Positions 35,780 through 55,919 of a stretch of DNA of 64,000 nucleotides are shown piece by piece. The stretch comes from an uncultured Pseudomonadota bacterium. GTDB lineage: Bacteria > Oederibacteriota > Muellerivitia > Muellerivitales > Muellerivitaceae. Position numbers and translations under genes: made by a program. The notes below the pieces were generated by a model. The model was given only the letters and a program-made list of their open reading frames with translations. It was not told the DNA's origin and made no database searches. Within the stretch, counting starts at the first letter, position 1. Each line of letters begins with the position of its first letter. Location: positions 1,856,001 through 1,920,000 of the forward strand of contig CAWIIP010000002.1 of NCBI GenBank assembly GCA_963836235.1, in the 5' to 3' direction.

Positions 35780-35884
35780 GGTTCACCTTCTTCATAGCGA
35801 TGCTTCAGGGCCAATGTAAGGAGAGAGGTGATGGTCTTCAAGGTGTCAGGGCATTTCAAGCAGGCCCTGACATAGGGATTTTTT

Positions 35885-39646: not shown

Positions 39647-39886
39647 GAAGGCCTTCGTCCTAATTTTTGGAAATGATGGAAAGGAAAAAGGTAGGGAAAG
39701 AGGATTTTTCGAAAAGGATTTTTGAACGGATTCCCATAACAGCGCCACCTGAAAGCGGTTTCTTTGATGGGATAAAGTTACACCTTTAGGAGGATGTGGT
39801 ATTTCACTATTGAATCATCTGGATGGTATTTTTGACGCATAACTTAAAGACTTAAACACTCCTGAAACAGTCCAAGGATGGTACCG

Positions 39887-41698: not shown

Positions 41699-41764
41699 TC
41701 TTTTATTATGTGATGAATCGCGGGCAGGGGCAATGTGGTTGCCCGGTAAAAGGGAGGAGCCCTT

Positions 41765-42808: not shown

Positions 42809-42987
42809 AAGAATCCTCCTGGGGTTTGGTTCAACCGCCTGAAACTACTCCAGAGCCGGGGAAAATAGCAATGGACTTACCAGGAAGTAACAAGAGGGCC
42901 CCTGTGCTGAGCCCCACAAGGCGAGGCACAAGCCTTGGGTGTGCCAGGTCCATAGTTATTATAAGGACCTGGTAGCGGCATGAGCTT

Positions 42988-43371
42988 TTAGGCTTTTCGC
43001 GGAAAAGCCTTATTCGAGAAATAGTACGAAGCCGACATGAGGATCAAAACGGTGAAGGGAATCGGGGCATGGGCGTAGTCCCCGGCGAGTAAATGGGACG
43101 CGGTCGCGCCCAGAAACATGAAGGTATAACCGGCGTAGGCCCACTCTTTCATCAGCGGAATCCGGCCCGTTAAGATCGCCAAAGCTCCCAGGATTTTCGA
43201 GGCCCCCAAAATTTTCATCAGATAAAGAGGATATCCCAATAGCTTAAAAGTTTGGATCACGGCCTCCGGGCCAGTCGAGAAAAGCTCAAAAACTCCCGAA
43301 CCCGCCGTGGGCAAAAGAAACAAAATCGTAAAAATCCAGAATAGGGTTTTATTCATCTTATTGGTTGACAC
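42988..43371 (-). CDS. DoxX-like membrane protein
   Basis: LGYP.Y...LG..K.LG, KEWAYAG..F...GA..SH. Confidence 0.9.
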   Translation of the reverse strand: MSTNKMNKTLFWIFTILFLLPTAGSGVFELFSTGPEAVIQTFKLLGYPLYLMKILGASKILGALAILTGRIPLMKEWAYAGYTFMFLGATASHLLAGDYAHAPIPFTVLILMSASYYFSNKAFPRKA

Positions 43372-43508
43372 GTCGTCCTCTGGTTTAAATTTTTTGATTC
43401 TTCGCCCTGATTTTTTTGTTCGAATTTAAAGTGAAGGGTATGGGTTTGCCTTTTTGTTATTTTGCTGAAATTAAAACATAAGATATTTAAAAGGCGTTAA
43501 ATATAAAA

Positions 43509-44560
43509 GCTGAATTCAACCAGTAAGTGCAACACCTAGACGAAAGACCTGCTCCGGCGTTTTGAAGCGAAGGCACTTGCGTGGACGGCTGTTGAGAGCC
43601 CGCTCCACACGTCGCACGTTCGCTGGAGTTATGGTAGCAAAATCGGTTTTCTTTGGATAGAAGCGCCGCACCAAACCATTAGTGTTTTCGACGGTTCCCT
43701 TTTCCCAACTGTGGAAAGGAAGACAGAAAAAGGAACGGGTTCCTAAGAGATTGTTAACTTGAAGATGCTCGATGTTTTCAGAGCCGTTGTCGTAAGTAAT
43801 GGTCCGGCGTAACCCCTTCGGAAAGAGGGTGAGCCGTCGATTGATAGCTGCTCGTGTTTTCGAAGCGGACTTTTGAGGCAACCAGGCGAGTTTCACGAGG
43901 CGGCTTTTTCGTTCGACCATCACCAAAAGGGAGGCTTTACTTTTTCTGGAGATGATGGTGTCCGCTTCCCAGTGACCAAATTGACGCCGCGTCTGCACGA
44001 TGGCGGGTCGTTGAGTGATCGGAGTTCGTTCTGGAATATGGCTTTTTCGATGTTTGTGCGAATGCCATCGGCGAAGCCGCTTTCGATGGGAACGAGCCAA
44101 GAGAGGGATGAGGTTTCGGGCTTCGGAATAAATGAACTGGTAGACGGCCTCGTGGGAAATGAATAGTTTGGAGTTCTCAAGGCGAAGCTGACCAGCAATT
44201 TGTTCGGGAGAAAACCCCTGATGAAGCTTACGCAAAACATGTTGTCGGATCCCTGGTTTTTTGAGACGCAGATGGGTCCGAGAGAGTTGGTTACGCTGGG
44301 TAGATCGCAGGTGAGCCCGAGCTGGTAGATAACGGCCAGGACGTAAAGGTGGTGCGTTACGCTTCAACTCTCGGGAAACACTGGACACATCACGTTCGAG
44401 GCGTCGGGCGATTTCTCGTATGGAGAGGCCTTCTGCCTTCCAAACTGCGATTTCTTCACGTTCGGCCAACGACAGGTGCTTGTAGGATTGTTTCATAAAA
44501 CTTAGGATAACCCCCGGATTCTGCCGGGGCTAAGTGTTGCACTTCGCTATTGAACTGGGG
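43509..44560 (-). mobile_element. IS30 family insertion sequence
   Basis: Imperfect terminal IRs TTCAACCAGT-AAGTGCAACACCTAG (43515-43539) and CTAAGTGTTGCACTTCGCTATTGAA (44530-44554); ends approximate; no clear target duplication. Confidence 0.9.
43516..44496 (-). CDS. IS30 family transposase
   Basis: N-terminal HTH (S.REIAR.L.R..SSVSRELKRN), SPEQI, GHWEAD, TYDNGSE, WEKGTVENTNGLVR, LNSRPRK.L. Confidence 0.97.
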   Translation of the reverse strand: MKQSYKHLSLAEREEIAVWKAEGLSIREIARRLERDVSSVSRELKRNAPPLRPGRYLPARAHLRSTQRNQLSRTHLRLKKPGIRQHVLRKLHQGFSPEQIAGQLRLENSKLFISHEAVYQFIYSEARNLIPLLARSHRKRLRRWHSHKHRKSHIPERTPITQRPAIVQTRRQFGHWEADTIISRKSKASLLVMVERKSRLVKLAWLPQKSASKTRAAINRRLTLFPKGLRRTITYDNGSENIEHLQVNNLLGTRSFFCLPFHSWEKGTVENTNGLVRRFYPKKTDFATITPANVRRVERALNSRPRKCLRFKTPEQVFRLGVALTG

Positions 44561-45136
44561 ACTGCCCCAATTGTGATAAGCCCAAGAGAGCTGATCATCT
44601 AATTTGTTCTTTTCTGCGAACTCTATAATTTTGCGATGATAACTCTCGATATCGGGACTTTCTAATCGAATTAACATCGAACCTTTTGCGGTCATTGAAT
44701 GAAAAATAAGATTCGTATCTTTTAAACTTTTGGCTGACTCCAACGCTTTTTCTGACTCATACAAAGCGAGGGTATACTCTTGGTTCTTTTCATAAACGGA
44801 ATACATAAGTTGATGGAAAAGTATCTTGTCTTCCAAATTCAAAGCATCCAATTTTACTTCTCTTAAAAGTTGTAAGTGATTTTCATCCGCTTTAAAGGAA
44901 TGGACATAAAGGGACGCGGCAATTTGTTCGAGATTCTCTTTCGAGATTAATCGATTTTCAGGAAAACATTTTTCAAATGATTTCAAATCGGGAGGGTTGA
45001 GAAATGCTTTTTTAATATTTACCGAAATATCATGTTTTAATTTTCTTATCGCTTCAGAATCTTGCTGAGTAACATCGGGCGAATTTATGTTTTCTGTTTT
45101 GCCTTGATCTTGATCCATTTCAATGACCTTCCCCAA
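44561..45136 (-). pseudogene. low-GC helical (TPR-like) protein, 3'-truncated by IS30
   Basis: ORF runs into the IS30 IR after ...SWAYHNWGS; visibly AT-rich. Confidence 0.65.
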
Positions 45137-45229
45137 AAGTTCGATCTAATTATCAGTTAAACATGCCCAACTTTCAGCCATTTCATTCATCGGTTTTTAA
45201 AGGGTTTAGGTCAAATACTAGGGATGGAA

Positions 45230-45315
45230 GTATCTTTTGGTCTACACGCAAAAAAACGAAAAGAGCTTGCGGGGGCGATGGAAGATGCTTCTTTAAGGCC
45301 TTCAATTTAAAATCA
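45230..45315 (-). repeat. degenerate copy D of the methyltransferase 3' end
   Basis: CTTTTGGTCTACACGCAAAAAAACGAAAAGAGCTTGCGGGGGCGATGGAAGA...CTTCTTTAAGG...CAATTTAAAATCA aligns to 55177-55264. Confidence 0.85.
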
Positions 45316-45534
45316 TGACCAATCTTCAAGGGGAATACCGCTTCCCTCGATAATGCTTTTGAGGGTGCCAAGGGGAAGGTCTCTTCCCTTATGAAATGGA
45401 ACAATAACCTGCTTATCCGTTTGCGGATTGCGCCATTTCTGATGGCTTCCCTTGCTTCCGACAAGCATAAAACCACCTTGTCGGAGAACACGAATAATTT
45501 CGGTTGGCTTGAGACGTGGATATTTGGAACTCAA
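45313..45534 (-). CDS. hicA: HicA family mRNA interferase toxin
   Basis: L...GF.....KGSHQKW...VIVPFH...LP.GTLKSII...G. Confidence 0.93.
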   Translation of the reverse strand: MSSKYPRLKPTEIIRVLRQGGFMLVGSKGSHQKWRNPQTDKQVIVPFHKGRDLPLGTLKSIIEGSGIPLEDWS

Positions 45535-45536
45535 TG

Positions 45537-45740
45537 TTAAAAGGCGAGCGCTTTGACTTTTGCGTTCTTGGGGAAGTGAATTTTCGGGGAAGGTTCGAGG
45601 TAAAGTTCAATCGCTTCATGAATGTTTTTCATAGCTTCTTTTTCCGTATCCCCGGAACTTGTACAACCGGGAAGCTCGGGACAATAGGCGGCGTAAGATT
45701 TGACTTGCTTGTCATATTCCAAAACAACCCTGATTTTCAT
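45537..45740 (-). CDS. hicB: short HicB family antitoxin (no DNA-binding domain)
   Basis: Y.AYCPELPGC.S.GDT..EA..NI.EAI.LYL. Confidence 0.93.
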   Translation of the reverse strand: MKIRVVLEYDKQVKSYAAYCPELPGCTSSGDTEKEAMKNIHEAIELYLEPSPKIHFPKNAKVKALAF

Positions 45741-45804
45741 GCGTTCCTCCTCTGACTTCAAAACAAATATAACAAAAGTTCAGTTCGATTCCCAGCGGAT
45801 CGGC

Positions 45805-45915
45805 CTATCTTTTGGTTAACACGCAAAAGAACCAAAAGGGCTGGCGGGGGCCGTGGAAGACGCCTTCTTTGAGGTCTTACAATTCAAAATCCTCTCCGAA
45901 AACCTTCTGAACTTT
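45805..45915 (-). repeat. copy C of the methyltransferase 3' end
   Basis: 4 mismatches over the 87 nt nearest the stop versus 55177-55263; translates VQKVFGEDFEL*DLKEGVFHGPRQPFWFFCVLTKR*. Confidence 0.95.
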
Positions 45916-46312
45916 ACGGCAAGGAATGAAATCCCTGTTCCTGGAAATGCTTGTCGAAGGTATGGACATTTTTGACGCCCTTTCGCCGCATCACTTCGAA
46001 ACTGACACAATCCACCAGGCTTAGATTCCTTCGCTTGGCCGTCAACACGGCGGCGAGGCCAGCCTCGTGGGAATTCTCATCCACCCACTCCACCGAGAGA
46101 AGCGGCACCACATCCCGATGGAATTCGGCCACGGCCTCCAAGCCCAAGCGGTTTTGAATCAGGGAGAAGGTCTCCAAGAGCGTGTAATTACTGCAAAGCA
46201 GGGACGCGTCCGATTCGAGCAGGGATTTCCATGCCTCATCCGCCTTGACGTGGAACCGGTCTTCCTTCGTTAAAAGAGCGATAAAGAAGGAGGTGTCAAT
46301 GAAGGTGGTCAC
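45914..46312 (-). CDS. vapC: VapC/PIN domain toxin
   Basis: FIDTS, LLET, SLVDCVSF, TFDKHF. Confidence 0.94.
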   Translation of the reverse strand: MTTFIDTSFFIALLTKEDRFHVKADEAWKSLLESDASLLCSNYTLLETFSLIQNRLGLEAVAEFHRDVVPLLSVEWVDENSHEAGLAAVLTAKRRNLSLVDCVSFEVMRRKGVKNVHTFDKHFQEQGFHSLP

Positions 46313-46554
46313 TTGGCGTAATCTTCAGCCAGGTACTTGTCGTGGTTGACGGAAAGATCGGAGTGCTTGGAATGGAATTTCCCCGAAATAGCGATGGCGC
46401 GTTTGCGCCGCTCTTCCGGGCTGATGCTCCCGTTTTTCAGGAACAAATCGATGCCTTGACGGATGGCCTCGGCCATGGAAATGTGGCGTTCCCCGGCGAT
46501 TTTTTTCAGGGAAACGGTTTGCTTCTTGGTCAATTGAATTTGGGTGCGGATCAT
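46309..46554 (-). CDS. CopG/RHH antitoxin (VapB-like)
   Basis: MIRTQIQL...SMAEAIRQGID...DLSVNHDKYL; overlaps vapC start. Confidence 0.92.
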   Translation of the reverse strand: MIRTQIQLTKKQTVSLKKIAGERHISMAEAIRQGIDLFLKNGSISPEERRKRAIAISGKFHSKHSDLSVNHDKYLAEDYAK

Positions 46555-46569
46555 GGCCACTCTCCTTAG

Positions 46570-46599
46570 TGATAACACTTACGTTATTATGATAACACT
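46570..46599. promoter_or_regulatory. candidate autoregulatory operator of vapBC
   Basis: Direct repeat TGATAACACT twice at 20-nt spacing just upstream of the antitoxin. Confidence 0.5.
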
Positions 46600-46683
46600 A
46601 GAGAAAGTGGGGTCAATAGTTGCGAGGGCCTGAGGTTTTAAATCAAGGATTCGCCGGATGGAAGACCCATTCTTTGATGTCTT

Positions 46684-48423
46684 TCAATCGTTTTCTTGTT
46701 TTTCCATCGCGATTTTTTGATAGATGGGGTATTGGGGTTCCCAGAATTTCTGGAGAATCCGCTGTCTTATTTCATCTTCCTCCATCGCCGGGGCGACGCC
46801 TTCTTTTTGCGCCTGCTTGACCACGGCTAGAGCGATGCGGCGGATGATGTCCTGGATGCCTTCCAGGGGGGGAAGCAGGGAAGCCGAGGGGTCGTGCAGG
46901 GCGGGGGAATAGCCCCCCAGCGCGCGGGCGGCGGCCAGGAGCATACCGTCGGTGATCCTTCGGGCCTCACAGGCGGCCACCACCAGCCCCATGGCGGGGA
47001 AGATGAAAAAATTGTTGCATTGGCCGATATGGACGCGCTTTTCCCCAAGGGCTACCGGCGAGAAGGGGGCGCCGGTGGCGATAAGAGCCCGACCCCCAGT
47101 CCAGTCCATCAGGTGCGAAGGCGTGGCCTCGGCGTGGTCGGTGGGGTTGGAGAGGGGGAAGATGACCGGGCGGTCCACCTTAGCCGCCATCTCCCTCACC
47201 AGCGGTTCGGTGAAGAGCCCGGGCTGCATGGAAACGCCGATCAGGATGGTGGCTGGAATACTCTTTATCGTCTCAAAAAGCCCCACCCGGCCCCGGGAGT
47301 CCTTGGGCCAGCCGGCGATTTTTTCAGTGGGCTGGGCGAATTTCATCTGGATGGGGGACAAGTTTTTAATGTCCTGGTGCAAGAGGCCGTCCACATCCAC
47401 CAGGTAAAAGTGGCCGAGGGCTTCGGCCTCGCTGAGCCCTTCCGCAACCATGGCGGCCAGCAGGTATTCGGCGATGCCCGTGCCCGCACCGCCCGCCCCC
47501 GCCATAACCACCTGCTGGTCGGAAAAGTTTTGGCCGGTCACTTTCAGGGCCCCCAAGATCGCCCCCGTGGAGACCGCCGCCGTGCCCTGGATGTCGTCGT
47601 TGAAGGTGCAGAGGCTGTCCCGGTACTTGTCCAGGATGGGGCGGGCGTGGGGCCTGGCAAAATCCTCCCATTGCAGAAGCACGTGGGGAAGTTTTTTGCG
47701 GACGGCCTGGACGAATTGGTCGATGAAGTCCCAATAGTCCTGGCCGGTCACGCGCTCATGGCGCCAGCCGACGTAAGTGGGGTCGCGCAAGAGACGTTCG
47801 TTGTTGGTGCCCACATCCAGAAAGATGGGCAAGGTGCGGGAAGGCTCGATGCCGCCCAGGAGCGAATAGAGGGAAAGCTTGCCGATGGGGATGCCCATGC
47901 CGCCGGCCCCTTGGTCGCCGATGCCGAGGATTCTCTCGCCGTCGGTGGCCACGATGACATCGACAAAGCGGTAGGGGCGGTTTTCCAAGATTTCCTCCAG
48001 CCGATCCCTTAAGGGGTAAGCCAAAAAGAGGCCCCGGGGCTGGCGGTAGATTTTGGAAAAGTTCATGCAGCCCTGGGCTACCACCGGGTTGTAGATGACC
48101 GGCGTCATTTCGGTAAGGTTGCGGCTGAGCAGGGCGTAGAAGAGGGTCTCGTTGGTATCCTGCAGGGCCCGCAGGAAGGTGTGGCAGTCCAGGTCGGTGT
48201 CCTGGAGCGAATAGGCGTTATAGGCCCGGTCGCACTGCTGTTCAAGGGTTTCCACCACGGGGGGAAGGAGCCCGGAGAGTTTGAACTGCTCCCTTTGCTC
48301 AAGGGTGAAGGCGGTGCCGGCGTTTAGGATGGGGTTGGTAAGGATCTGCTGGCCGGTGAGATGGGTTTTGAAAAGCGTGGAGCCCGGGGGCAGGGGAGCG
48401 CTTGGAGATTCTGGGTCCGACAT
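46684..48423 (-). CDS. maeA: NAD-dependent malic enzyme (MaeA/SfcA type)
   Basis: TDGERILGIGDQG, GKLSLY, DVGTNN, QWEDF, FNDDIQGT, GAGGAG, LSNPT, GQCNN. Confidence 0.93.
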   Translation of the reverse strand: MSDPESPSAPLPPGSTLFKTHLTGQQILTNPILNAGTAFTLEQREQFKLSGLLPPVVETLEQQCDRAYNAYSLQDTDLDCHTFLRALQDTNETLFYALLSRNLTEMTPVIYNPVVAQGCMNFSKIYRQPRGLFLAYPLRDRLEEILENRPYRFVDVIVATDGERILGIGDQGAGGMGIPIGKLSLYSLLGGIEPSRTLPIFLDVGTNNERLLRDPTYVGWRHERVTGQDYWDFIDQFVQAVRKKLPHVLLQWEDFARPHARPILDKYRDSLCTFNDDIQGTAAVSTGAILGALKVTGQNFSDQQVVMAGAGGAGTGIAEYLLAAMVAEGLSEAEALGHFYLVDVDGLLHQDIKNLSPIQMKFAQPTEKIAGWPKDSRGRVGLFETIKSIPATILIGVSMQPGLFTEPLVREMAAKVDRPVIFPLSNPTDHAEATPSHLMDWTGGRALIATGAPFSPVALGEKRVHIGQCNNFFIFPAMGLVVAACEARRITDGMLLAAARALGGYSPALHDPSASLLPPLEGIQDIIRRIALAVVKQAQKEGVAPAMEEDEIRQRILQKFWEPQYPIYQKIAMEKQEND

Positions 48424-48552
48424 AGGGACTCTTTCGCCGATCAAGGGGGAAAATTCACCGATGGTTTATCTTATATCCACGGGCCATCGAAAAATAAAGG
48501 GTTGGGGCACATATTCTACTTTAGCCCATGGCCCCCAATATCTTCGAAGAAG

Positions 48553-48628
48553 CTGTCTTTTGGTCAACAGGCAAAAAAACGAAAAAGGCTGGCGGGGGCC
48601 GTGGAAGGCCCCCTTTTTTCAATTCTTC
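48553..48628 (-). repeat. copy B of the methyltransferase 3' end
   Basis: CTTTTGGTCAACAGGCAAAAAAACGAAAAAGGCTGGCGGGGGCCGTGGAAG; translates FHGPRQPFSFFCLLTKR. Confidence 0.9.
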
Positions 48629-48653
48629 TTGGAAATACCTTCAAGGGTTTCCT

Positions 48654-48929
48654 TTATTTCTTTTCAACCAGATCCATTCCGCACTTGGGGCATTTGCCAT
48701 CAGCCGTCCTGGGGCCGCTATAGTCGCCCATGGGACAAACCCAAGTTGCCTGAACCGCCTTCGCGGCAACCGGCTTCTTCTTGGCCTTTTTGACCTTATG
48801 TTTCACCGCCGGCGTTGAAGCGGCTACCGGCGTGGAGAGGCCATCCGCTTTGCCCGCGTCATCCGCCCAAACCGACTGAACCACGACCAACAAAGCCGCA
48901 ACCATCAACAAATCCAAATATTTTTTCAT
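48654..48929 (-). CDS. periplasmic heavy-metal-binding domain (HMBD) protein
   Basis: Signal peptide; WVCPM...GKCPKCGMDL (usual CPMH His replaced by Gly). Confidence 0.85.
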   Translation of the reverse strand: MKKYLDLLMVAALLVVVQSVWADDAGKADGLSTPVAASTPAVKHKVKKAKKKPVAAKAVQATWVCPMGDYSGPRTADGKCPKCGMDLVEKK

Positions 48930-48992
48930 CACCTTGCTCCTTTTGTTTTTTGCCCAGATTTCCATTTTGGAAAGCAGGGAACAGCTCGTTCT

Positions 48993-51900
48993 TTAACCCA
49001 CCCTTTTAACGACTTTCCAAAACCATCCCCAAAAGCCGGTAAGTTCCTTTTTTACCACTTGGGGCCTGACTTCGGTGTGCCATTTCCAAATGACGAATAG
49101 GACGGGATAGACCAAAAGCTCCAAAAGGAAGGAGGTGAAAATCCCGCCCACCATGGGGGCGGCGATACGCTTCATGACGTCGCTTCCCACGCCGTTGGAA
49201 AAGAGGATGGGAACCAAGCCCATCCAGGCCGCCCCGACCGTCATCAGCTTGGGGCGGACACGATGGACGGCTCCCTCCAAAGCCGCTTCCTTTAAATCCA
49301 GGAGGCTCTTGAGCTTTCCCCGCTCCCGGTATTCCCGGTAGGCGATATTTAAATAAAGCAGCATGACGACCCCGGTTTCGGCGTCCAAGCCCGCCAGGGC
49401 GATCATCCCCACGGCTACCGCCACCGAGAGGTTATACCCCAGCATCCAAAGAAGCCAAAAGGCCCCCACCAGGGAGAAGGGAACGGCCAGGAGCACCATG
49501 GCCGTTTCGGTGAAGGACTTGGTGTTGAAATAAATGAGCAGGAAGACCAGCAGAAGGGTCAGGGGGATCATGATCCTGAGCCTCTTGGCCGCCTGTACCA
49601 TATATTCGTATTGGCCGCTCCATTCCAGGCTCACCCCCGGCGGAAGATTTACTTTTTGTTCCAAAACCCTTTTGGCCTCGGCCACCCAAGTACCGGGGTC
49701 ACGGTTCGCCAAGTCAACGTAGACGTAACCCGCCAGCAAGCCGTTCTCATCGCGGATCATGCCCGGCCCCGTGCTCAAGGAGACGTCGGCCACCTGCCCC
49801 AATTGAATATGCTGGCCCGAGGGGGTCACCATGGGAACACGCCTCATCTTATCCGGCGTGTCGCGGAAATCCCGGCTCAAGCGGACCGTGATGGGAAACC
49901 GGGCCCGTCCCTCGACCGCTTCCGTGACCATGTCCCCCCCGACCGCCGATTGGATGAAGTCGTTCAGGTCGCCCACGCTCATGCCGTAACGGGCCAGCTG
50001 GTCCCGCTTGGCCTGGATATCCACGAAATAGCCGCCGGTCACCCTTTCGGCGAAGGCGCTGCGGGTGCCGGGGATATCGTGGACGGCCTTTTCAATGTCC
50101 TCGCTGGCCTTTTCGATGGCCTCGAAGTTATCCCCCAATACCTTGATGCCGATGGGAGTGCGGATACCGGTGGAGAGCATGTCGATGCGGTTCTTGATGG
50201 GCCCGATCCAGTCGTTGGTAAAGCCCGGCACTTGCAGGGCCTGGTTCATCTGCTGGATGAGCTTTTCATGGGTCATGCCCGCGGGCCACTGGCTTTCGGG
50301 CTTGAAAACGATGGTGGTTTCCACCATCGACAGGGGGGCGGGGTCCAGGGAGGTTTCCGCCCTTCCCGCCTTGCCGAACACGCTCTGAACTTCCGGGAAT
50401 GACTTGAGGACCCGGTCCTGCATCTGAAGAATCCGCCCGGCCTCGGCGATGGAAATGCCCGGCAAGGTGATCGGCATATATAGAAGAGTCTCCTCCCACA
50501 GGGGCGGCATGAACTCCGTGCCCAACCGCGCCATGGGCAGGAAAGTCAAAACCATGACGCCCAAAGCCGAGCCGATCACGGTCAGGCGGTGGTCCAGCAC
50601 CCACCGCGCCATCGGCGCGTAGAGGCCCTGGAGAATCCGGTTCACCGGGTTTTCCTTTTCCGGCCGGATGGTTCCCCGGAGCAAAAGGGTCATCAACATG
50701 GGGGTGAGGGTGACCGCCAGGAAGGCGGAGAAAAACATGGCGAAGGTTTTGGTGAAAGCCAGGGGCTTGAACAAGCGGCCCTCCTGGCCCTGCAGGGCGA
50801 AGACCGGCAGGAAACCCGCCGTGATGACCAGCAAGGTCATGAAGAGGGAAGGCCCCACCTCCGTGCAGGCGCGAAGAATGACGCTAGTGCGGTCTTCCTT
50901 CTTTTTACCTTTTTCCCATTCCTCCAGACGCTTGCAGGCGTTTTCCACCATGATGATGGAAGCGTCCACCATGGCCCCGATGGCGATGGCGATCCCGCCC
51001 AAACTCATGATGTTGGAAGTGACGCCGATATAGCGCATGCAAATGAACGAAATGAGGATGGAAACGGGCAGGGTGACCAGGATGACGAAGGCCGAGGGCA
51101 AGTGCCAAAGGAAGATCAGGCACACGATACTCACCGCGATGGCCAGTTTCGCCAATTCCTCCATGAGGGTGTTCACCGAATCCTGGATTAGTTCGGACCG
51201 GTCGTAGACCGGCACGATTTCCACGCCCGGGGGGAGGGAGGGTTTCAGTTCCTCCAGCTTTTGCTTCACGGTCGCGATGACATTCATCGCGTTTTCGCCG
51301 TAGCGCATGGTCACGGTGCCGCCCACGACCTCGCCTTGGCCGTTCAAATCGGTGACGTTACGCCGCAAGGCGGGCCCCAAGCGGGCCTGGCCCACGTCCT
51401 TGACCAAAACGGGAATGCCCTGCTTGTCGCGCCCCACCACGATACCCTGGAGGTCCTGGAGACGGTGGACATAGCCCAAACCCCGCACCATGTATTCGGT
51501 GCCGTTCAGTTCCAACAGTCTTCCACCCACTTCCTGGTTGGATTCCCGCACCGCCTTGACCACATCCGAAAAGGGTATGTCATAGGCCGCCAGGGCCGCG
51601 GGGTTCACTTCCACCTGATACTCTTTCGTCTCACCGCCGACGGTCGAGACCTCGGCCACGCCGGGAAGGCTTTGGAGGACAAATTTCAGGTTCCAATCCT
51701 GGTAGGCCTTGAGTTGTTCCAGGCTGTTCTGGCCGGTCTTATCGACCAAGGCGTATTGGTAAACCCAGCCCACCCCGGTGGCGTCCGGCCCGATTTCCAC
51801 TTTCGCGCCCTCGGGAAGGCTGCCCTGTATCTTCGAGAGATATTCCAATACCCGGCTTCTCGCCCAATAAACATCCGTGCCCTCGTCAAAAATGACATAG

Positions 51901-52175
51901 ATATACGAAAACCCAAAGTCCGATTGGGCCCGGATGGATTTAACATGCGGGGCCCCCAACAAGGCCCGGGTGATGGGGTAAGCCACCTGATCTTCCAGGA
52001 TGTCGGGACTGCGGTCCCACTGGGCGAAGACCACCACTTGGGTATCCGATAAATCCGGGATAGCGTCCAGGGGGACAGTTTTAACCGCCCAAATTCCCCA
52101 GCCGACGACCAACAACAGCCCCAGGCCGACTACAAACCTGTTTCTTCCGCAAAACCCGATGACTTTAGCAATCAT
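48993..52175 (-). CDS. cusA: CusA/CzcA family RND heavy-metal efflux permease (Cu/Ag type)
   Basis: DAIPDLSD, IGAMVDA.I.MVEN; Met triad EFMP / PLSMVET / RIDMLSTG; RVRPKLMT. Confidence 0.95.
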   Translation of the reverse strand: MIAKVIGFCGRNRFVVGLGLLLVVGWGIWAVKTVPLDAIPDLSDTQVVVFAQWDRSPDILEDQVAYPITRALLGAPHVKSIRAQSDFGFSYIYVIFDEGTDVYWARSRVLEYLSKIQGSLPEGAKVEIGPDATGVGWVYQYALVDKTGQNSLEQLKAYQDWNLKFVLQSLPGVAEVSTVGGETKEYQVEVNPAALAAYDIPFSDVVKAVRESNQEVGGRLLELNGTEYMVRGLGYVHRLQDLQGIVVGRDKQGIPVLVKDVGQARLGPALRRNVTDLNGQGEVVGGTVTMRYGENAMNVIATVKQKLEELKPSLPPGVEIVPVYDRSELIQDSVNTLMEELAKLAIAVSIVCLIFLWHLPSAFVILVTLPVSILISFICMRYIGVTSNIMSLGGIAIAIGAMVDASIIMVENACKRLEEWEKGKKKEDRTSVILRACTEVGPSLFMTLLVITAGFLPVFALQGQEGRLFKPLAFTKTFAMFFSAFLAVTLTPMLMTLLLRGTIRPEKENPVNRILQGLYAPMARWVLDHRLTVIGSALGVMVLTFLPMARLGTEFMPPLWEETLLYMPITLPGISIAEAGRILQMQDRVLKSFPEVQSVFGKAGRAETSLDPAPLSMVETTIVFKPESQWPAGMTHEKLIQQMNQALQVPGFTNDWIGPIKNRIDMLSTGIRTPIGIKVLGDNFEAIEKASEDIEKAVHDIPGTRSAFAERVTGGYFVDIQAKRDQLARYGMSVGDLNDFIQSAVGGDMVTEAVEGRARFPITVRLSRDFRDTPDKMRRVPMVTPSGQHIQLGQVADVSLSTGPGMIRDENGLLAGYVYVDLANRDPGTWVAEAKRVLEQKVNLPPGVSLEWSGQYEYMVQAAKRLRIMIPLTLLLVFLLIYFNTKSFTETAMVLLAVPFSLVGAFWLLWMLGYNLSVAVAVGMIALAGLDAETGVVMLLYLNIAYREYRERGKLKSLLDLKEAALEGAVHRVRPKLMTVGAAWMGLVPILFSNGVGSDVMKRIAAPMVGGIFTSFLLELLVYPVLFVIWKWHTEVRPQVVKKELTGFWGWFWKVVKRVG

Positions 52176-52198
52176 TTAAAACCTCCAAAGACTCTCTT

Positions 52199-52310
52199 AA
52201 CCACCAAGGCACCAAGGGCACCAAGAACGACGAAAGGCAAGAAGCTTTAAAACGGCCAAAATTAAATCTTTTGGTTTTTCCTTCTTGGTGCCCTTAGTGT
52301 CTTGGTGGTT
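52199..52310. repeat. palindromic intergenic element (copy 2) between cusB and cusA
   Basis: AACCACCAAGGCACCAAGGGCACCAAGAA ... TTCTTGGTGCCCTTAGTGTCTTGGTGGTT. Confidence 0.85.
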
Positions 52311-52316
52311 CAAATT

Positions 52317-53279
52317 TTATTTTCCGCTTTGCGATTCCATGGCGGCAAAATTGGCCGCCAGCTTGGAATCGGCGTCCACCATGAAATTCGCCCCCGACAC
52401 CACCCTGTCACCGGCTTGAAGGCCGGACAAAATTTGGCAACGGTCGTCGCCCTCGAATCCCACCGTGATTTCCCGGGGCGTGAAAATTTCCGGCGGCTGT
52501 TTCAGGAAAACATAACGGTGGAGCCCCGTGGCCATCACGGCATCGGTAGGCACCGACAGGAGGGGTTGGGAAGCCGCCTCTATTTCCACGTTGGCATAAA
52601 GTTCGGAGGAAGGGGCGTTGGAAAGGCTGATTTGGACCTTGCGTTCCCGGGATTGGGTTCCGTCATAAGGATAAATTCGCGACACCCTTCCTTCCACCCG
52701 GGGCCCGGACCCGCTGAAGGCGGACACCCAGGCGGTTTGTCCCACCCTGACATAGGGGATATCGAGGGCGTAAACGTCAGCCACCAGATACCGGCTTCTC
52801 TCGGACGCCACCTTTCTCCCCGCCGCGAAATCACCCACGGCGGCGGAAAAGTCATCGGACCCGCCTCCAAAGCGCCCCACGGTTTGGATGACCCTGACGA
52901 CGGGTTTCTGTTCCACTAGGGCAGTTCGCAGCCCTATGAGTTGCTGCTTAAAGGGGGATAGATCAACGGCGGCTAACCCATTAAGTGCTGCGGGCTGTCC
53001 CGTCTGCCCGGCTGAAAGGGAGGCGCTTTCCTTTTCACCCCCGGCCGTGCCATCCCTTTTAATGAGGGTCATGCCGCAAATGGCGCAATTTCCCGGATGA
53101 TCCTGGTGGAACCAGGGATGCATGGCGCAATAGTAATCATCCGACTTCTTGTCGGCGGCCTTCGTTTCCACCCCCTTCGGTTTGCCTTCAAGACACCAAC
53201 GGGCGGTCCCCATGGCGGCCAATAAGGCCAACAGAATTAAGAAAATTACTTTTCGAGTTTTCATGATGAATCGGTACAT
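52317..53279 (-). CDS. cusB: CusB-like RND periplasmic adaptor with N-terminal HMBD, internally shortened
   Basis: YCAMHP....PGNCAICGM; ADVY..D...V.VGQ; IYP; VP..AV; GL..GD.VV..ANF.VD. Confidence 0.85.
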   Translation of the reverse strand: MYRFIMKTRKVIFLILLALLAAMGTARWCLEGKPKGVETKAADKKSDDYYCAMHPWFHQDHPGNCAICGMTLIKRDGTAGGEKESASLSAGQTGQPAALNGLAAVDLSPFKQQLIGLRTALVEQKPVVRVIQTVGRFGGGSDDFSAAVGDFAAGRKVASERSRYLVADVYALDIPYVRVGQTAWVSAFSGSGPRVEGRVSRIYPYDGTQSRERKVQISLSNAPSSELYANVEIEAASQPLLSVPTDAVMATGLHRYVFLKQPPEIFTPREITVGFEGDDRCQILSGLQAGDRVVSGANFMVDADSKLAANFAAMESQSGK

Positions 53280-53283
53280 GCCG

Positions 53284-54576
53284 TTACTCCTTTTCGTTTG
53301 CGGAACCCGGGAGGGTCCCCATCCGGTAATCAAGGTCCGCTAGGGCTTTGCCATAGTCGGACTGTGCCTTGTAGTAAGACTTCAACGTGTCGATGTACAT
53401 GTTGTAGTTGTCCACGAAGTCCGGAAGTTGTATTTCTTCGTTTCGGTAGGCCGCCTGTGTGGCTTTCCATGCCTTTTGCGTTTGTCCCAATAACCCGCCC
53501 TCCTCATACAATTTCCAAAGCCGCCAGGCCGATTGGGCGCTCACGAAGGCTTCCTCGACCATGTGGGTGGCCTCGTCCTTGGCCCCCGTCAATTCGTACC
53601 GGGAGGCTTCCACCTGGTCATTGGCCTGGTCGGTGGCCTGGGTTTGCTTGAGGGGAAAGAAAAGCGGGACGCTCACGTCCACCCTGAACCCCCAATAGGA
53701 AAAACCGGTGTCTTCGGGATTCCGGGTGCCGGAAAGGGCCACCGTGAAATCCGGCAAGTGGCTTAACACCGCCACATGCGCCTCGGCCCCGGCTTTATCC
53801 AGGTCCCTTTCGGCCTCTGCCACCATGGGATTATGATCCATGGCGGTTTGAACCAGGTCTTGAACCGTCCCGGCCAGGGGAGGCAAGGCGGGTATTTCCT
53901 TCAGGGTGTAAGCCGTCCCATGAGGCAGGCTGAAGAGGTGGTTGAAGTTGGCCCTTGAGACTTCCAAATCCTGGCTGACGGTGAAAAGATCGTTGGTGGT
54001 GTTCGCCATTTCCATCTGCGCCCGGACGGTCTTCATGGAAAGCCATTGGCCCGTCAGTTCACGGGACTTCAATGCCTGGCTTAAGGATTCCCATTGGCTT
54101 TGGGACCCGGCCAGAACCTCGTAAACCTTTTGCCGGTAGTAAAAATCCCAAAAGGCTTGCCGGGTCTGGAGCAGGATCGTCCGGCGCGTATCTTGGGCCA
54201 GCGCCTGTTTTTTTCCGGTTTCGGCCTTGTCCACATCCAGCTGGGCAAGGCTTTTTCCCGGAAAGCCGAGGTTTTCCTCCACCTGCCACATACTCATATC
54301 GGGGAAAGTATCGTCGACCATGAAGGTGGGATCGGCGGGGGCCAGGGTTTGAAGATTTTGTTTTCCCGCCGCCTCCACCCGTTTGTCCGCCGCGCGGATA
54401 TGGGGGTTTCCTTCCAGGGCCATTTCTTCCGCTTTGGGAAGGGTGATTTCAATGGTGGCGGGGGCGGTTGAACCGATCTCCATACCGGCCATATCGGCGG
54501 CCCCTAAGGGTTCCGAAAGCCCAAGGGCGGCTAAGAAGAGGGTTGGGTAAATCAAATTTGAATTTTTCACGGGCAT
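53284..54576 (-). CDS. TolC/CusC family outer membrane efflux protein
   Basis: Signal peptide; two OEP repeats (A...NP..; LPDF; VSVPLF); operon context. Confidence 0.88.
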   Translation of the reverse strand: MPVKNSNLIYPTLFLAALGLSEPLGAADMAGMEIGSTAPATIEITLPKAEEMALEGNPHIRAADKRVEAAGKQNLQTLAPADPTFMVDDTFPDMSMWQVEENLGFPGKSLAQLDVDKAETGKKQALAQDTRRTILLQTRQAFWDFYYRQKVYEVLAGSQSQWESLSQALKSRELTGQWLSMKTVRAQMEMANTTNDLFTVSQDLEVSRANFNHLFSLPHGTAYTLKEIPALPPLAGTVQDLVQTAMDHNPMVAEAERDLDKAGAEAHVAVLSHLPDFTVALSGTRNPEDTGFSYWGFRVDVSVPLFFPLKQTQATDQANDQVEASRYELTGAKDEATHMVEEAFVSAQSAWRLWKLYEEGGLLGQTQKAWKATQAAYRNEEIQLPDFVDNYNMYIDTLKSYYKAQSDYGKALADLDYRMGTLPGSANEKE

Positions 54577-54654
54577 CACTCCTTTTGTTTGCGGACGCAA
54601 ATAAGCCACGGATGGATTCTTTTGAACCCATCGACGCAACATCAAAAGGAATGA
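54576..54654 (-). promoter_or_regulatory. stem-loop sequestering the cusC Shine-Dalgarno and start
   Basis: mRNA UCAUUCCUUUUG pairs with CAAAAGGAGUGA (12 bp, one G-U); inner hairpin GAUGGGUUC-AAAA-GAAUCCAUC. Confidence 0.7.
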
Positions 54655-54655
54655 A

Positions 54656-55006
54656 TCAGATTCTTAGGACGGCAGAACTTCGGGGAGGAGACTCCACAAC
54701 GGCGGGAACCACACTAAAGCGAACCGCAAATAAAAATCGCGGTTGAAAAACTTTGGTCGTGACCATTGAGGAGGCCACCACTGGAAGATGAACCACGGAC
54801 GGCGTGACCGTCGACTGGTTCATGACCTTGCACATCGGATTCATGGGTTTGGAGGAATGGCAGCAATTCATCGGAGTGGTCATGTGCCGCATGGAGCAAA
54901 CCGTCACGGAAGGGGACAGTTGCTGGCAAGCGTCGCAGGGGGACAAGACTAACAGGACCCCCAAGACCAAAAGGCTTCGACGAATGATCGAGAAGAACTT
55001 TTCCAT
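54656..55006 (-). CDS. Cys/His/Met-rich exported leader-type protein (DUF2946/CutF-like)
   Basis: Signal peptide; CDAC, CSMRHM, NCCH, MC; C-terminal SPP......LRI; first gene of the Cu efflux operon. Confidence 0.7.
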   Translation of the reverse strand: MEKFFSIIRRSLLVLGVLLVLSPCDACQQLSPSVTVCSMRHMTTPMNCCHSSKPMNPMCKVMNQSTVTPSVVHLPVVASSMVTTKVFQPRFLFAVRFSVVPAVVESPPRSSAVLRI

Positions 55007-55093
55007 GAATGAATCCTACGCCTTTTACCCCGAAATGGCAAATCGGCTTCTTATTTACCGCCCTCAGCCTAAGGGAAAGGTTGGAAGGCCAAT

Positions 55094-55107
55094 ATGATCT
55101 ATATCAA
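55094..55107. promoter_or_regulatory. FNR-like box upstream of the copper operon
   Basis: ATGAT-CTAT-ATCAA, one mismatch to TTGAT-N4-ATCAA. Confidence 0.3.
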
Positions 55108-55176
55108 GTTGGGACGGGAGCCCGGCTTCGGATGGTTATTTAACTGCCAGCAGGCCTTTGGAATTCCTAGAAAGAC

Positions 55177-55794
55177 CTACCTTTTGGTTAACACGCAAAA
55201 GAACGAAAAGGGCTGGCGGGGGCCGTGGAAGACACCTTCTTTGAGGTCTTCCAATTCAAAATCATTTTCGAAAAGCTCCTGAATTTCCTCGGGCGTAAAA
55301 CGGTAGGGCCCGAAGCCCGCGGGCATCTTGAAGCTGAAGACCTTCAAGGTCAGCACGCCGCCTTTTATTAAAAGCCCAGCCACCGTCCGGCGGTAATCGT
55401 CCCAATCCTTGGAAGGCAGGGTGTGGAAGCAACCGCGGTCATGGACCAAAAGGGCGTCGCCCGTTTTGGGAAGGGTTAGAACGTCGGTAGTGAGGAACTT
55501 GATCTTGCCTTCGACCCCCGCTTTCCGGGCGGTTTTGTGGGCCAGGGCGATCGCCGATTCGGCGATATCCACGGCGGTGACCTTCCAACCTTGTTGAGTG
55601 AGGTAAGCGGCGTCGTTGCCGGGCCCGCAGCCCAGGTCGTAGGCGATGCCGGGGGGAACGGAAACCGTTTCAAGCAGGTCCCGAAGGTCGCTATCCACGC
55701 TCTCCGCGTTCCAGGGCAATTCGGAAGGCGGGGTCTTTTGGTAAGTGGCTTCCCAGGACTCGTGCGGCCCAGTGGTGCCATGGTATTCGGTCAT
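55177..55794 (-). CDS. class I SAM-dependent methyltransferase (TPMT/TehB-like); its 3' end is copy A of the repeat
   Basis: W...Y.....PW; DLGCGPG; VDIA..AI; DRGCFHTL. Confidence 0.92.
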   Translation of the reverse strand: MTEYHGTTGPHESWEATYQKTPPSELPWNAESVDSDLRDLLETVSVPPGIAYDLGCGPGNDAAYLTQQGWKVTAVDIAESAIALAHKTARKAGVEGKIKFLTTDVLTLPKTGDALLVHDRGCFHTLPSKDWDDYRRTVAGLLIKGGVLTLKVFSFKMPAGFGPYRFTPEEIQELFENDFELEDLKEGVFHGPRQPFSFFCVLTKR

Positions 55795-55919
55795 AAGTGG
55801 CTCCTCGTGTTGGAAAAGTTTACCGCTTTTTTTTTCGGAATATAAAAAAATATTTACTGCCTTGAGATTGGGCTGACTCCATCCTTAAAATCCTTCGAAG
55901 AAGAGCTAAGGGGGGCGTA

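What the first reader, a model, noticed from the sequence alone, without database searches (positions are those of the whole stretch)
45230..55286. Integron-like cassette array delimited by repeated 3' ends of a protein-coding (methyltransferase) gene, with no integrase in view
Seen: the last 75-110 nt of the methyltransferase gene (55177-55286) recur as direct repeats at 48553-48628, 45805-45915 and 45230-45315. Every copy ends at the position of the stop codon. The repeats bracket co-oriented modules: the Cu efflux operon (about 6.5 kb), malic enzyme + vapBC (about 2.6 kb), hicBA (about 0.5 kb), then a low-GC TPR-like gene. Two copies begin at the stop codon of the preceding cargo gene (vapC, hicA) and the third within about 25 nt (HMBD gene). 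Many differences are synonymous or conservative (CCC/CCT, TTC/TTT, TTA/TTG; VQKVFGEDF vs IQELFENDF), as if each copy was once the working C-terminus of an allele. All copies keep an imperfect palindrome T(C/T)TTTTG-N9-CAAAAG(A/G) beside the stop. Known: integrative elements that target gene 3' ends bring a replacement end and leave the old one as attR, and integron arrays are enriched in TA pairs. Inference: a serial gene-capture hotspot using a CDS tail as the recombination site, with modules too small to be autonomous and a recombinase in trans or homology-driven capture.
Basis: partly seen in the sequence, partly recalled or inferred. Interest (0 to 1): 0.85.

Follow-up and report, generated by a model that had tools for sequence, protein, structure and literature searches.

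The report
Displaced gene tails mark stacked insertions
Three blocks of accessory genes have been added one after another directly behind a methyltransferase gene, each leaving a decaying copy of that gene's last 75-110 bases, and the same scar is found behind at least seven other ordinary genes in this genome, which points to a general homology-anchored way of acquiring small gene modules and not to an integron.

Summary
The last 75-110 nt of a TPMT-like methyltransferase gene (55177-55794, minus strand) recur at 48553, 45805 and 45230. Each copy ends at the stop-codon position. They bracket a heavy-metal RND efflux operon, malic enzyme + vapBC, and hicBA. The repeat occurs nowhere else in the 3.97 Mb genome. 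No other genome searched (99 of the phylum) has more than one copy.

The integron-like reading is not supported. There is no integron integrase, no recombinase in the 19 kb block, and no attC-type core. The small palindrome is made by Phe and Lys codons and is not shared by similar loci.

The decisive result is that the same layout (intact gene, cargo, remnant of that gene's own tail) occurs behind at least 7 other unrelated genes in this genome, mostly around toxin-antitoxin pairs, and also in two other genera. Differences between working tails and remnants fall mainly on third codon positions (39/34/99), so the remnants were once working ends of other alleles.

Best explanation (about 0.5): serial homology-anchored insertion with displacement of the resident gene end, as proposed for Rhs and T6SS orphan arrays. 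Main rival: decayed site-specific elements that brought replacement gene ends.

Side finding: a 26-nt palindrome marks separate cassette arrays that share cargo families.

The parts
55177..55794 (-). Anchor gene: TPMT-like SAM-dependent methyltransferase, 205 aa, intact
   Evidence: Pfam PF05724 TPMT 1.1e-17. Orthologues: 80% aa in G001, 60-69% in G005, G020 and G011.
55177..55286 (-). Working tail (last about 110 nt including stop TAG), the reference copy of the repeat
48654..55006 (-). Module 1: heavy-metal (Cu/Ag-type) RND efflux operon. Genes: 116-aa unknown, OEP, HMBD + HlyD_D23 adaptor, ACR_tran pump, small HMBD protein.
   Evidence: Pfam. 78-80% nt identity to an operon in G001 that lies directly downstream of tRNA-Leu(CAA), and to one in G046, a different genus.
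48553..48628 (-). Tail remnant 1 (about 75 nt). Stop TAG changed to CAG. 58 of 75 identical to the working tail.
45914..48470 (-). Module 2: NAD(P) malic enzyme with its own promoter region, then the vapB-like antitoxin (46309-46578) and PIN toxin vapC (45914-46312).
   Evidence: Pfam. Malic orthologue in G001 between the AKR and DUF3574 genes. The vapBC unit (about 690 nt) is shared with 5 other genomes at 76-82% nt.
45805..45915 (-). Tail remnant 2 (about 110 nt). In-frame TAA replaces GAA. 94 of 103 identical to the working tail. Its upstream 32 nt are identical to the allele in L055.
45313..45800 (-). Module 3: hicB (45537-45761) and hicA (45313-45534) with about 40 nt of own upstream sequence.
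   Evidence: Pfam. 80-81% nt identity to units in G043 and G012.
45230..45315 (-). Tail remnant 3 (about 85 nt). Stop TAG changed to TAC. A 2-nt gap relative to the working tail. It supplies the TGA that ends hicA.
35850..45229 (.). Distal part of the block that is absent from G001. Contents: low-GC ORF, IS30-family IS (43509-44560), DoxX, Zn-ADH, AraC-type regulator, 1287-aa surface protein with a T9SS sorting tail. No tail remnant at its far end.

Best explanation
The array is a historical stack and not an active cassette machine.

Proposed sequence of events. Three times, DNA from a related strain that also carried the methyltransferase gene recombined with this chromosome. One crossover lay in the shared gene. 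The other joint was illegitimate and fell inside the last 75-110 nt of the resident gene. This is homology-facilitated illegitimate recombination. The result is the same if a circular DNA carrying a tail integrates by a single homologous crossover. Each event installed an incoming gene end plus new cargo next to the gene, and pushed the resident gene end downstream, where it decays. On this reading the newest module (the metal efflux operon) lies next to the gene and the oldest (hicBA) lies furthest away.

Why the repeats coincide with a gene end. Only events whose duplicated segment contains a gene end leave an intact gene. That explains why the repeats run to the stop codon.

Why this cargo. 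Toxin-antitoxin pairs predominate because they resist loss once they are in.

What is shown:
- the repeats and their decay;
- locus specificity;
- the recurrence of the scar at other genes;
- the coding-type divergence of the remnants;
- the absence of a recombinase.

What is inferred: the recombination route and the order of events.
For: 1. Four copies, found only at this locus.

2. The remnants are decaying pseudogene ends: an in-frame TAA in 45805, and lost stop codons in 48553 and 45230.

3. G001 has the gene with a single tail. Its stop lies about 95-145 nt from DNA that is syntenic with window position about 35790-35850.

4. The same layout recurs in this genome. A self-BLAST screen flagged 31 repeat pairs. 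After I inspected alignments, 11 remnants behind 8 anchor genes remained. By Pfam the other anchors are a pseudouridine synthase (2 remnants), fatty-acid desaturase, S9 peptidase, MetH, a radical SAM enzyme, DinB and a SAM methyltransferase. Their cargo is PIN, HicB/UPF0150, RHH + MazF (twice), Fic and an AbiEii-like protein, with HigBA and MazF adjacent. Their tail sequences are unrelated to one another.

5. In G001 the desaturase and pseudouridine-synthase genes are convergent with about 48 nt between their stops. In G000 about 6 kb lies there, with modules and remnants stacked from both ends.

6. Differences between working tails and remnants, pooled over 11 pairs, are 39/34/99 at codon positions 1/2/3 (chi-square p = 1.4e-10). 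My rough expectation for an in-place duplication followed by neutral decay is a position-3 excess of only about 1.5-fold.

7. The upstream 32 nt of remnant 45805 match the allele in metagenome contig L055 exactly. The working tail differs there at 6 positions.

8. The vapC-to-remnant joint lies in AAA(G)TT. Both the native 3' flank of the module in relatives and the tail share this word.

9. The same vapBC family (86% aa) sits behind a cupin-like gene in G016 with that gene's own tail remnant (87% over 123 nt). In G043 a toxin-antitoxin pair lies between a frameshifted head remnant and the intact gene.

10. There is no integron integrase. None of the 8 tyrosine recombinases or 2 serine recombinases lies in the window. 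Five of the 8 tyrosine recombinases lie within about 0.7 kb of a tRNA gene.

11. The displacement model with one homologous and one illegitimate joint is in print for T6SS immunity arrays and Rhs loci (PMC5361080, passages read).
Against: - No donor arrangement (methyltransferase gene followed directly by a given cargo with no remnant) was found.
- No population variant, excised circle or empty site was seen. The three public runs gave only short, low-depth contigs.
- G000-versus-G001 identity does not change along the anchor genes, so chimerism of the working genes is not shown.
- Cargo-to-remnant joints are tight: 0-6 nt after the cargo stop for hicA and vapC. By my reading of the alignments and ORF tables they are about 18-40 nt at three other loci. 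Random illegitimate joints would not obviously give this.
- The pair 45805 versus the working tail shows no third-position bias (5/2/3). That copy could be an in-place duplicate.
- The vapBC family sits behind different anchor genes, so a primary event that owes nothing to tail homology must exist.
- Homology-facilitated illegitimate recombination is reported to be rare in the species tested (PMC5361080).
Confidence: 0.5

Rival explanations
1. Decayed site-specific integrative elements. Each module is what is left of a larger island, phage or mobilisable element. A tyrosine or serine integrase inserted it into an attB within the 3' end of the methyltransferase gene, and it brought a replacement gene end. 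The old end became attR. Tandem accretion and later streamlining removed the integrases and left addictive or useful genes.
For: - The geometry and the mainly synonymous differences between tails are also what replacement gene ends of integrative elements produce. The example of phages integrating in icd is recalled, not read here.
- Accretion of integrase-less cis-mobilisable elements at a gene 3' end is described in streptococci (search listing only: PMC7563491, PMC5704250).
- A 2026 study proposes that toxin-antitoxin pairs are acquired through mobile elements and the linked loci are then streamlined (PMC13617665, abstract and passages).
- The Cu operon of G001 lies in a tRNA-Leu island context.
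- The tight trimming of cargo fits streamlining.
- The same vapBC family behind different anchors fits toxin-antitoxin pairs riding on different elements.
Against: - No integrase gene or detectable fragment lies in the 19 kb block or at the 7 other loci (Pfam; genome-wide PF00589 and PF00239).
- Eight different target genes would need as many specificities. Yet 5 of the 8 integrases present lie beside tRNA genes.
- The tails share no motif, and the palindrome is not general.
- The malic enzyme gene has a local orthologue next door in G001.
- No plasmid or phage record matches the small modules. This is weak evidence for so obscure a lineage.
Confidence: 0.25
2. A dedicated integron-like system. 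The CDS tail, through its terminal palindrome, serves as the attachment site. A recombinase encoded elsewhere inserts and excises small promoter-bearing cassettes.
For: - Co-oriented modules, toxin-antitoxin cargo and repeats that abut the cargo stop codons.
- A conserved 23-nt palindrome at the end of every copy.
- The genome does hold true palindrome-delimited cassette arrays elsewhere that share cargo families.
Against: - No integron integrase and no attC-type core.
- The palindrome follows from Phe and Lys codons. G001 has it without an array.
- Other tail-remnant loci have unrelated sequences and mostly no palindrome.
- The remnants carry decay marks, which a maintained site would not.
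- The 26-nt array palindrome is absent from window 34-58 kb even allowing 7 mismatches.
Confidence: 0.05
3. In-place segmental duplication and deletion. Tandem duplication of the segment malic enzyme-AKR-methyltransferase, followed by deletions and insertions, relocated the malic gene and left tail fragments without any incoming DNA.
For: - The malic orthologue in G001 lies between the AKR and DUF3574 genes. It is missing from exactly that place in G000: AKR ends at 56871 and the DUF3574 gene ends at 56887.
- The pair 45805 versus the working tail is 91% identical and shows no third-position bias (5/2/3).
Against: - No remnants of the AKR or DUF3574 ends flank the malic module.
- It does not explain the foreign hicBA, vapBC and Cu operon, nor the coding-type divergence at the other loci.
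- It needs many precise steps.
Confidence: 0.08

Closest known systems
C-terminal displacement / orphan arrays of Rhs, CDI and T6SS effector-immunity loci
   Same: An intact upstream gene is followed by an ordered string of displaced 3' pieces with their linked genes. New modules enter next to the gene and push older ones back. The proposed route has one homologous and one illegitimate joint. No recombinase is involved (PMC5361080, passages read; the Rhs paper is cited there and was not read).
   Different: In those systems the anchor is a polymorphic toxin gene. Its variable tip and the immunity gene are themselves the cargo, and the orphans keep a function as immunity genes. Here the anchors are ordinary enzyme genes, the displaced piece is a functionless 63-195 nt tail, the cargo is unrelated to the anchor, and the scar is seen at many loci in one genome.
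Integrative elements that insert in the 3' end of a protein gene and carry a replacement end; tandem accretion of integrase-less cis-mobilisable elements
   Same: Direct repeats of a gene tail bracket inserted DNA. The gene stays intact. The copies differ mainly at silent sites. Several elements can pile up at one site.
   Different: Those systems depend on a site-specific integrase and a defined att core. Neither was found here. Eight different target genes are affected, and modules as small as 0.57 kb occur. This knowledge is recalled or comes from search listings and was not read in full.
Integrons and clusters of attC sites without an integrase
   Same: Co-oriented small modules, enrichment in toxin-antitoxin pairs, and a repeat directly after each module's stop codon.
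   Different: There is no IntI, no attC core or long imperfect hairpin, and the repeat is a coding tail that decays.
Toxin-antitoxin operon flanked by a duplicated 24-bp res-like palindrome in Photorhabdus (PMC13617665)
   Same: A chromosomal toxin-antitoxin pair is bracketed by direct copies of a sequence that is single in the empty site of a relative.
   Different: There the repeat is a short palindrome resembling a Tn3 resolution site. Here it is 63-195 nt of the neighbouring gene's coding end. That paper describes toxin-antitoxin integration mechanisms as poorly characterised (passages read; its supplements could not be seen).
Campbell-type insertion-duplication (a circular DNA carrying a gene fragment integrates by a single crossover)
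   Same: It produces exactly this geometry. It explains why only fragments that contain a gene end leave an intact gene.
   Different: It is known as a laboratory tool and for plasmid integration (recalled). A natural source of circles carrying tail + cargo is not shown here.

Membership tests
Integron / CALIN | Integron integrase (IntI) in the genome or next to the array | tested here: not met
   TIGR02249 in the own genome: best 40.9 bits against a cut-off of 265. No tyrosine recombinase lies in the window.
Integron / CALIN | attC sites with RYYYAAC ... GTTRRRY cores and an imperfect long hairpin | tested here: not met
   Read from the alignment. The nearest words are GTTAACC and GTTGACC. 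The only symmetry is a 6-7 nt arm pair 9 nt apart, inside codons. No attC covariance model was available.
Site-specific integrative element in a gene 3' end (with accretion) | Integrase gene or its remnant inside or beside the bracketed DNA | tested here: not met
   Pfam on all larger ORFs of 35.8-58 kb. Genome-wide PF00589 (8 hits) and PF00239 (2 hits), none in the window. The only recombinase-type gene in the block is an IS30-family transposase of a multicopy IS.
Site-specific integrative element in a gene 3' end (with accretion) | Direct repeats of the gene end bracketing the insert, with the gene kept intact by a replacement end | tested here: met
Site-specific integrative element in a gene 3' end (with accretion) | Defined att core used for excision (circles, empty sites) | tested here: inconclusive
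   Public runs gave only short, low-depth contigs with no bridging pieces listed at the repeats. G001 shows a single tail but a different downstream context.
Displacement arrays by homology-facilitated illegitimate recombination | Intact anchor gene followed by ordered displaced 3' pieces, each with its linked cargo | tested here: met
Displacement arrays by homology-facilitated illegitimate recombination | Displaced pieces derive from once-working alleles | tested here: met
   Codon-position differences 39/34/99, p = 1.4e-10. Remnant 45805 matches the L055 allele. For the three methyltransferase pairs alone the bias is weak (17/8/20).
Displacement arrays by homology-facilitated illegitimate recombination | Microhomology at the illegitimate joint | tested here: inconclusive
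   The vapC joint lies in a shared AAA(G)TT. The hicA joint shares at most 1-2 nt. The donor sequences are unknown.
Displacement arrays by homology-facilitated illegitimate recombination | Working anchor gene is a mosaic of resident and donor DNA | tested here: inconclusive
   No shift in G000-versus-G001 identity between gene body and tail for 3 anchor genes.

The most novel reading that the evidence does not exclude
In this lineage small gene cassettes, mostly toxin-antitoxin pairs, move by a general process that targets gene ends and needs no cassette-borne recombinase. The cassettes are held in arrays delimited by a 26-nt palindrome. When a cassette leaves such an array, it lands within a few bases of the coding end of an ordinary gene and creates a 60-200 nt remnant of that gene's tail or head. 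On this reading the tail arrays and the palindrome arrays are two faces of one cassette-mobility system. The very tight cargo-to-remnant joints reflect a defined cut at the cassette's coding end and not chance.
Probability: 0.2. Interest if true: 0.8.

Novelty: new variant of a known kind. Interest (0 to 1): 0.5.

Why it matters
How chromosomal toxin-antitoxin pairs and other small accessory modules get into chromosomes without any visible mobility gene is an open question. A 2026 study describes the mechanisms as poorly characterised (PMC13617665).

This genome offers a readable scar: a decaying copy of the neighbouring gene's end. The scar records each event, gives its order, and shows by its codon-position pattern that the incoming DNA carried a different allele of the neighbour. 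If the scar proves common, it provides a simple computable marker for homology-anchored acquisition in any genome. That would make the relative weight of recombinase-driven and recombination-driven gene gain directly measurable.

For this locus in particular, it shows that a metal-efflux operon, a metabolic gene and two toxin-antitoxin pairs were stacked behind one gene without an integron.

Tried and rejected
Reads. One search found three soil-metagenome runs. Laid on 36500-56400, they gave only short contigs of about 200-600 nt at depth about 1-6. No listed joint or bridging piece lay at any tail copy, and many rows were not shown. This says nothing for or against excision or assembly error. 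An assembly artefact is unlikely on other grounds: the copies are 66-91% alike and each carries its own changes.

Public pattern scans. A degenerate 38-nt core found one metagenome contig (L055) and the G001 contig only. This was too few for a population view.

IS30 transposase as the agent. Rejected. It is a 1052-bp IS with 11 near-identical copies at AT-rich sites and is unrelated to the tails.

Palindrome as a site. Rejected as a general feature.

Mosaic test of anchor genes. No signal.

Flanks of the malic module. Only about 70 nt of promoter homology to G001, and no remnants of neighbouring genes.

Plasmid and phage collections. No match to the vapBC-hicBA stretch.

Rfam on 35000-58500. 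Only the tRNA-Asn.

Candidates dropped from the tail-remnant count after inspection:
- cand 1: the repeat covers a gene start on the other strand.
- cand 10: a 43-nt identity that does not end at the stop.
- cand 11-13, C1:402142 and C4:699483: paralogous neighbours, repeat proteins, or not examined further.
- The pairs in which both copies end long paralogous ORFs.
- Tandem repeats inside genes.
- Array B (C1:565731-568482, with a fourth copy on C5) is a non-coding repeat and was kept apart.

Cand 2 has no orthologue in G001, so no empty site could be compared there.

Supplementary files of the papers could not be seen; those of PMC13617665 and PMC5361080 may hold locus maps that bear on how common such scars are.

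The statement that tail remnants around toxin-antitoxin pairs are not described in print rests on three searches only and on passages of two papers.

Full report
**What is there**

All genes of the region lie on the minus strand. The anchor is a 205-aa TPMT-like methyltransferase gene (55177-55794; Pfam PF05724). Its last 75-110 nt recur three times downstream. The stop-equivalent triplets lie at:
- 48553 (CAG)
- 45805 (TAG)
- 45230 (TAC)

Copy 45805 also has an in-frame TAA where the gene has GAA. The three copies are therefore decaying gene ends.

Between the copies lie three modules:
1. A heavy-metal-type RND efflux operon: 116-aa unknown, OEP, an adaptor with HMBD and the CusB-type barrel-sandwich domain, an ACR_tran pump, and a small HMBD protein.
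2. Malic enzyme, followed by a PIN toxin with its upstream partner.
3. hicB-hicA.

In the 3.97 Mb genome the tail occurs only here.

**Wider frame**

In the same-genus genome G001 the methyltransferase gene has one tail. Its stop lies 95-145 nt from DNA that matches window position about 35790-35850. The variable block is therefore about 19.3 kb.

The distal 9.4 kb contains a low-GC ORF, an IS30-family IS, DoxX, an alcohol dehydrogenase, an AraC-type regulator and a 1287-aa surface protein. It has no tail copy at its far end. The IS is 1052 bp with 11 near-identical copies in the genome, so it is a passenger.

**Where the cargo comes from**

*Malic enzyme gene.*
- It has an orthologue in G001 (88% aa, 84% nt) between the aldo-keto reductase gene and the DUF3574 gene. 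That is on the other side of the methyltransferase gene.
- In G000 those two genes abut, 16 nt apart.
- Only this genus has the gene, 2 of 31 family genomes.
- Its flanks keep about 70 nt of promoter homology to G001 and no remnants of neighbouring genes.

*Efflux operon.*
- It is 78-80% identical in nt to an operon in G001 that lies directly downstream of tRNA-Leu(CAA), next to a CopA-type ATPase and AbiE genes.
- It is equally similar to an operon in G046, a different genus.

*HicA and VapC.*
- Both have 85-89% aa relatives in other genera of the family, while the anchor gene's orthologues there are 60-69% identical.
- The small modules are therefore horizontally mobile units.
- The vapBC unit is about 690 nt, running from its operator repeats to the stop. 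The hicBA unit is about 450 nt. Both have the same ends in all contexts examined.

**Is it an integron or a site-specific system?**

- No integron integrase is present (best 41 bits, cut-off 265).
- The genome has 8 tyrosine recombinases of about 370 aa and 2 serine recombinases. None lies in the window.
- Of the 8 tyrosine recombinases, 5 lie within about 0.7 kb of a tRNA gene, 1 lies 2.6 kb from one, and 2 have no tRNA gene within 40 kb.
- The palindrome at the end of the tail lies within the codons F-F-C-V-L-T-K-R. It is present in G001, which has no array.
- A comparable palindrome exists at 3 of 8 tail-remnant loci, against 160 of 1500 random ORF ends.
- No other genome has more than one copy of the tail: 6 of 32 genomes of the order matched the DNA query, and 11 of 99 of the phylum matched the 60-aa tail. 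Each of these had one copy except G000.

**The key result: this locus is not unique in kind**

A self-BLAST of the genome for short local direct repeats gave 195 pairs. Of these, 31 had one copy ending within 12 nt of the stop of an ORF of 100 aa or more.

After reading the alignments I kept 11 remnants behind 8 anchor genes. Besides the methyltransferase gene (3 remnants) these are:

| Anchor gene | Remnants | Cargo |
|---|---|---|
| RluD-type pseudouridine synthase | 2 (93-94% identical) | PIN gene; HicB-like gene |
| Fatty-acid desaturase | 1 | RHH + MazF |
| S9 peptidase | 1 | RHH + MazF |
| MetH | 1 | lipoprotein gene, with HigBA beyond the remnant |
| Radical SAM enzyme | 1 | AbiEii-like gene |
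| DinB protein | 1 | Fic |
| SAM methyltransferase | 1 | two genes, with MazF beyond the remnant |

The names are from Pfam. In every case the intact gene is upstream and the remnant downstream. Apart from tandem repeats inside genes, the opposite geometry appeared once among the flagged pairs, by my reading.

In G001 the desaturase and pseudouridine-synthase genes are convergent with about 48 nt between their stops. In G000 about 6 kb lies there, built up from both gene ends.

That comparison also shows that the copies keep about 20 nt resembling the original spacer after the stop. So the duplicated unit runs slightly past the stop codon. The sharp end 'at the stop' is partly an effect of stronger conservation of coding sequence.

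The same layout occurs in other genera:
- In G016, a cupin-like gene tail, then vapBC (86% aa to ours), then a tail remnant (87% over 123 nt).
- In G043, the mirror image: a frameshifted head remnant, a toxin-antitoxin pair, then the intact gene, with homology starting at the start codon.

**What the remnants were**

Over the 11 pairs, differences between working tail and remnant fall 39/34/99 on codon positions 1/2/3 (p = 1.4e-10). My rough expectation for an in-place duplication whose orphan copy decays neutrally is a position-3 excess of only about 1.5-fold. The observed excess is 2.7-fold, and larger at several loci (for example 1/1/9 and 2/4/14). So most of the divergence arose while both copies were coding. 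The remnants are ends of other alleles.

For the three methyltransferase pairs alone the bias is weak (17/8/20). The pair with 45805 shows none (5/2/3).

Independent support comes from metagenome contig L055. It carries an internally deleted methyltransferase gene: 8 start codons fused to the tail at a TACC microhomology, by my reading. Its tail has, over 32 nt, exactly the allele of remnant 45805, where the working tail differs at 6 positions.

**Mechanism**

The pattern fits serial insertion anchored by homology in the neighbouring gene. The route is either one homologous and one illegitimate joint, or a single crossover with a circular DNA that carries a tail.

Either route leaves an intact gene only if the duplicated segment contains a gene end. 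That explains both the tail and the head cases.

This model has been proposed for T6SS immunity arrays and Rhs loci (PMC5361080, passages read).

The vapC joint lies in AAA(G)TT, a word present both in the module's native flank in relatives and in the tail. At the hicA joint the unit is cut right at its native stop, and a TGA from tail-derived sequence closes the gene.

**What speaks against it, or remains open**

- No donor state, circle or deletion variant was seen.
- The anchor genes show no mosaic signal against G001.
- The cargo-to-remnant joints are strikingly tight.
- The same toxin-antitoxin family behind different anchors needs a primary event that tail homology cannot supply.

The main rival is decayed integrase-borne elements that carried replacement gene ends. 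It explains the geometry and the silent-site differences equally well, and it fits the acquisition-then-streamlining model of PMC13617665. But it needs eight target specificities and leaves no integrase trace at any of the eight loci.

**Side finding**

The relatives' vapBC and hicBA units are followed, 11-35 nt after the stop, by a 26-nt perfect palindrome (GTCCACGAYGGG, a 2-nt centre, then the reverse complement).

- G000 has 32 regex matches, or 65 sites with up to 5 mismatches. They cluster in about 10 co-oriented arrays, for example 7-13 sites at C2:1192094-1202654 and 6-10 at C4:135628-145835.
- In these arrays each gene or gene pair is followed within 4-30 nt of its stop by the palindrome in a fixed orientation.
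- One copy lies 14 nt beyond the last remnant of the pseudouridine-synthase array.
- None lies in window 34-58 kb, even allowing 7 mismatches.
- Three Y1-type transposase genes exist in the genome. Whether they act on the palindrome is unknown.

This may be a REP-like family or a true cassette system. It shares cargo families with the tail arrays and deserves its own study.

**Verdict**

The integron reading is not supported. The locus is the largest of at least eight 'tail displacement' scars in this genome. It is a new variant of a known kind. It is of moderate interest in itself, and of higher interest if the scar proves to be a general marker of how small modules enter chromosomes.

Noticed in passing
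G000 C2:1192094-1202654; C4:135628-145835; C4:854529-860180; C1:370996-382833; C5:251932-253353 and other clusters (outside the window); also L085, L086, L087, L082, L083 in relatives: A 26-nt perfect palindrome (GTCCACGAYGGG, a 2-nt centre GA or TC, then the reverse complement) occurs at 65 sites with up to 5 mismatches. The sites cluster in co-oriented arrays. In these arrays each gene or toxin-antitoxin pair is followed within 4-30 nt of its stop by the palindrome in a fixed orientation. The layout resembles integron cassettes or REP elements. No integron integrase is present, but 3 Y1-type transposase genes are. Relatives' copies of the vapBC and hicBA units of this window carry the palindrome; the window's own copies do not.
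   Followed up: partly
window 52178-52322: The spacer between the RND pump gene and the adaptor gene belongs to a dispersed repeat of about 115-135 nt. It has 25 or more copies on both strands of four contigs at 72-80% identity, which looks MITE- or REP-like.
   Followed up: no
L055 2157-2300 (metagenome contig): In another population the methyltransferase gene is internally deleted. Its first 8 codons are fused to the last 38 or so codons at a TACC microhomology. The gene therefore appears dispensable. The aldo-keto reductase gene next to it appears frameshifted.
   Followed up: partly
G000 C1:565731-568482 and C5:277778-277906: A non-coding repeat of about 100-140 nt (78-81% identical) occurs three times downstream of a restriction-enzyme-like gene. 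It brackets a vapBC pair and a two-gene module. A fourth copy lies on another contig, about 4 kb from a tRNA-Arg-associated integrase. It is a different kind of repeat from the coding tails.
   Followed up: partly
window 56871-56891 versus L065 1840-3831: The malic enzyme gene lies between the aldo-keto reductase and DUF3574 genes in G001, but downstream of the methyltransferase gene in G000. It is a single-gene relocation within one neighbourhood, with only the coding region and about 70 nt of promoter conserved.
   Followed up: partly
window 35885-39748: A 1287-aa protein with FlgD-Ig and T9SS sorting-tail matches has an 88-90% nt paralogue at C2:793272-796146 and many weaker repeat-domain relatives. 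The strong GC and AT skew at 37-39 kb reflects its repetitive coding sequence.
   Followed up: no
G000 C2:500986-509719 and C2:1355080-1375031: Two classical islands are bounded by 55-nt and 46-nt direct repeats that overlap tRNA-Asp and tRNA-Ser genes. Each has a 370-aa integrase and a small excisionase-like gene at the tRNA end. The first also holds a group-II-intron-type reverse-transcriptase-like ORF (not verified).
   Followed up: partly
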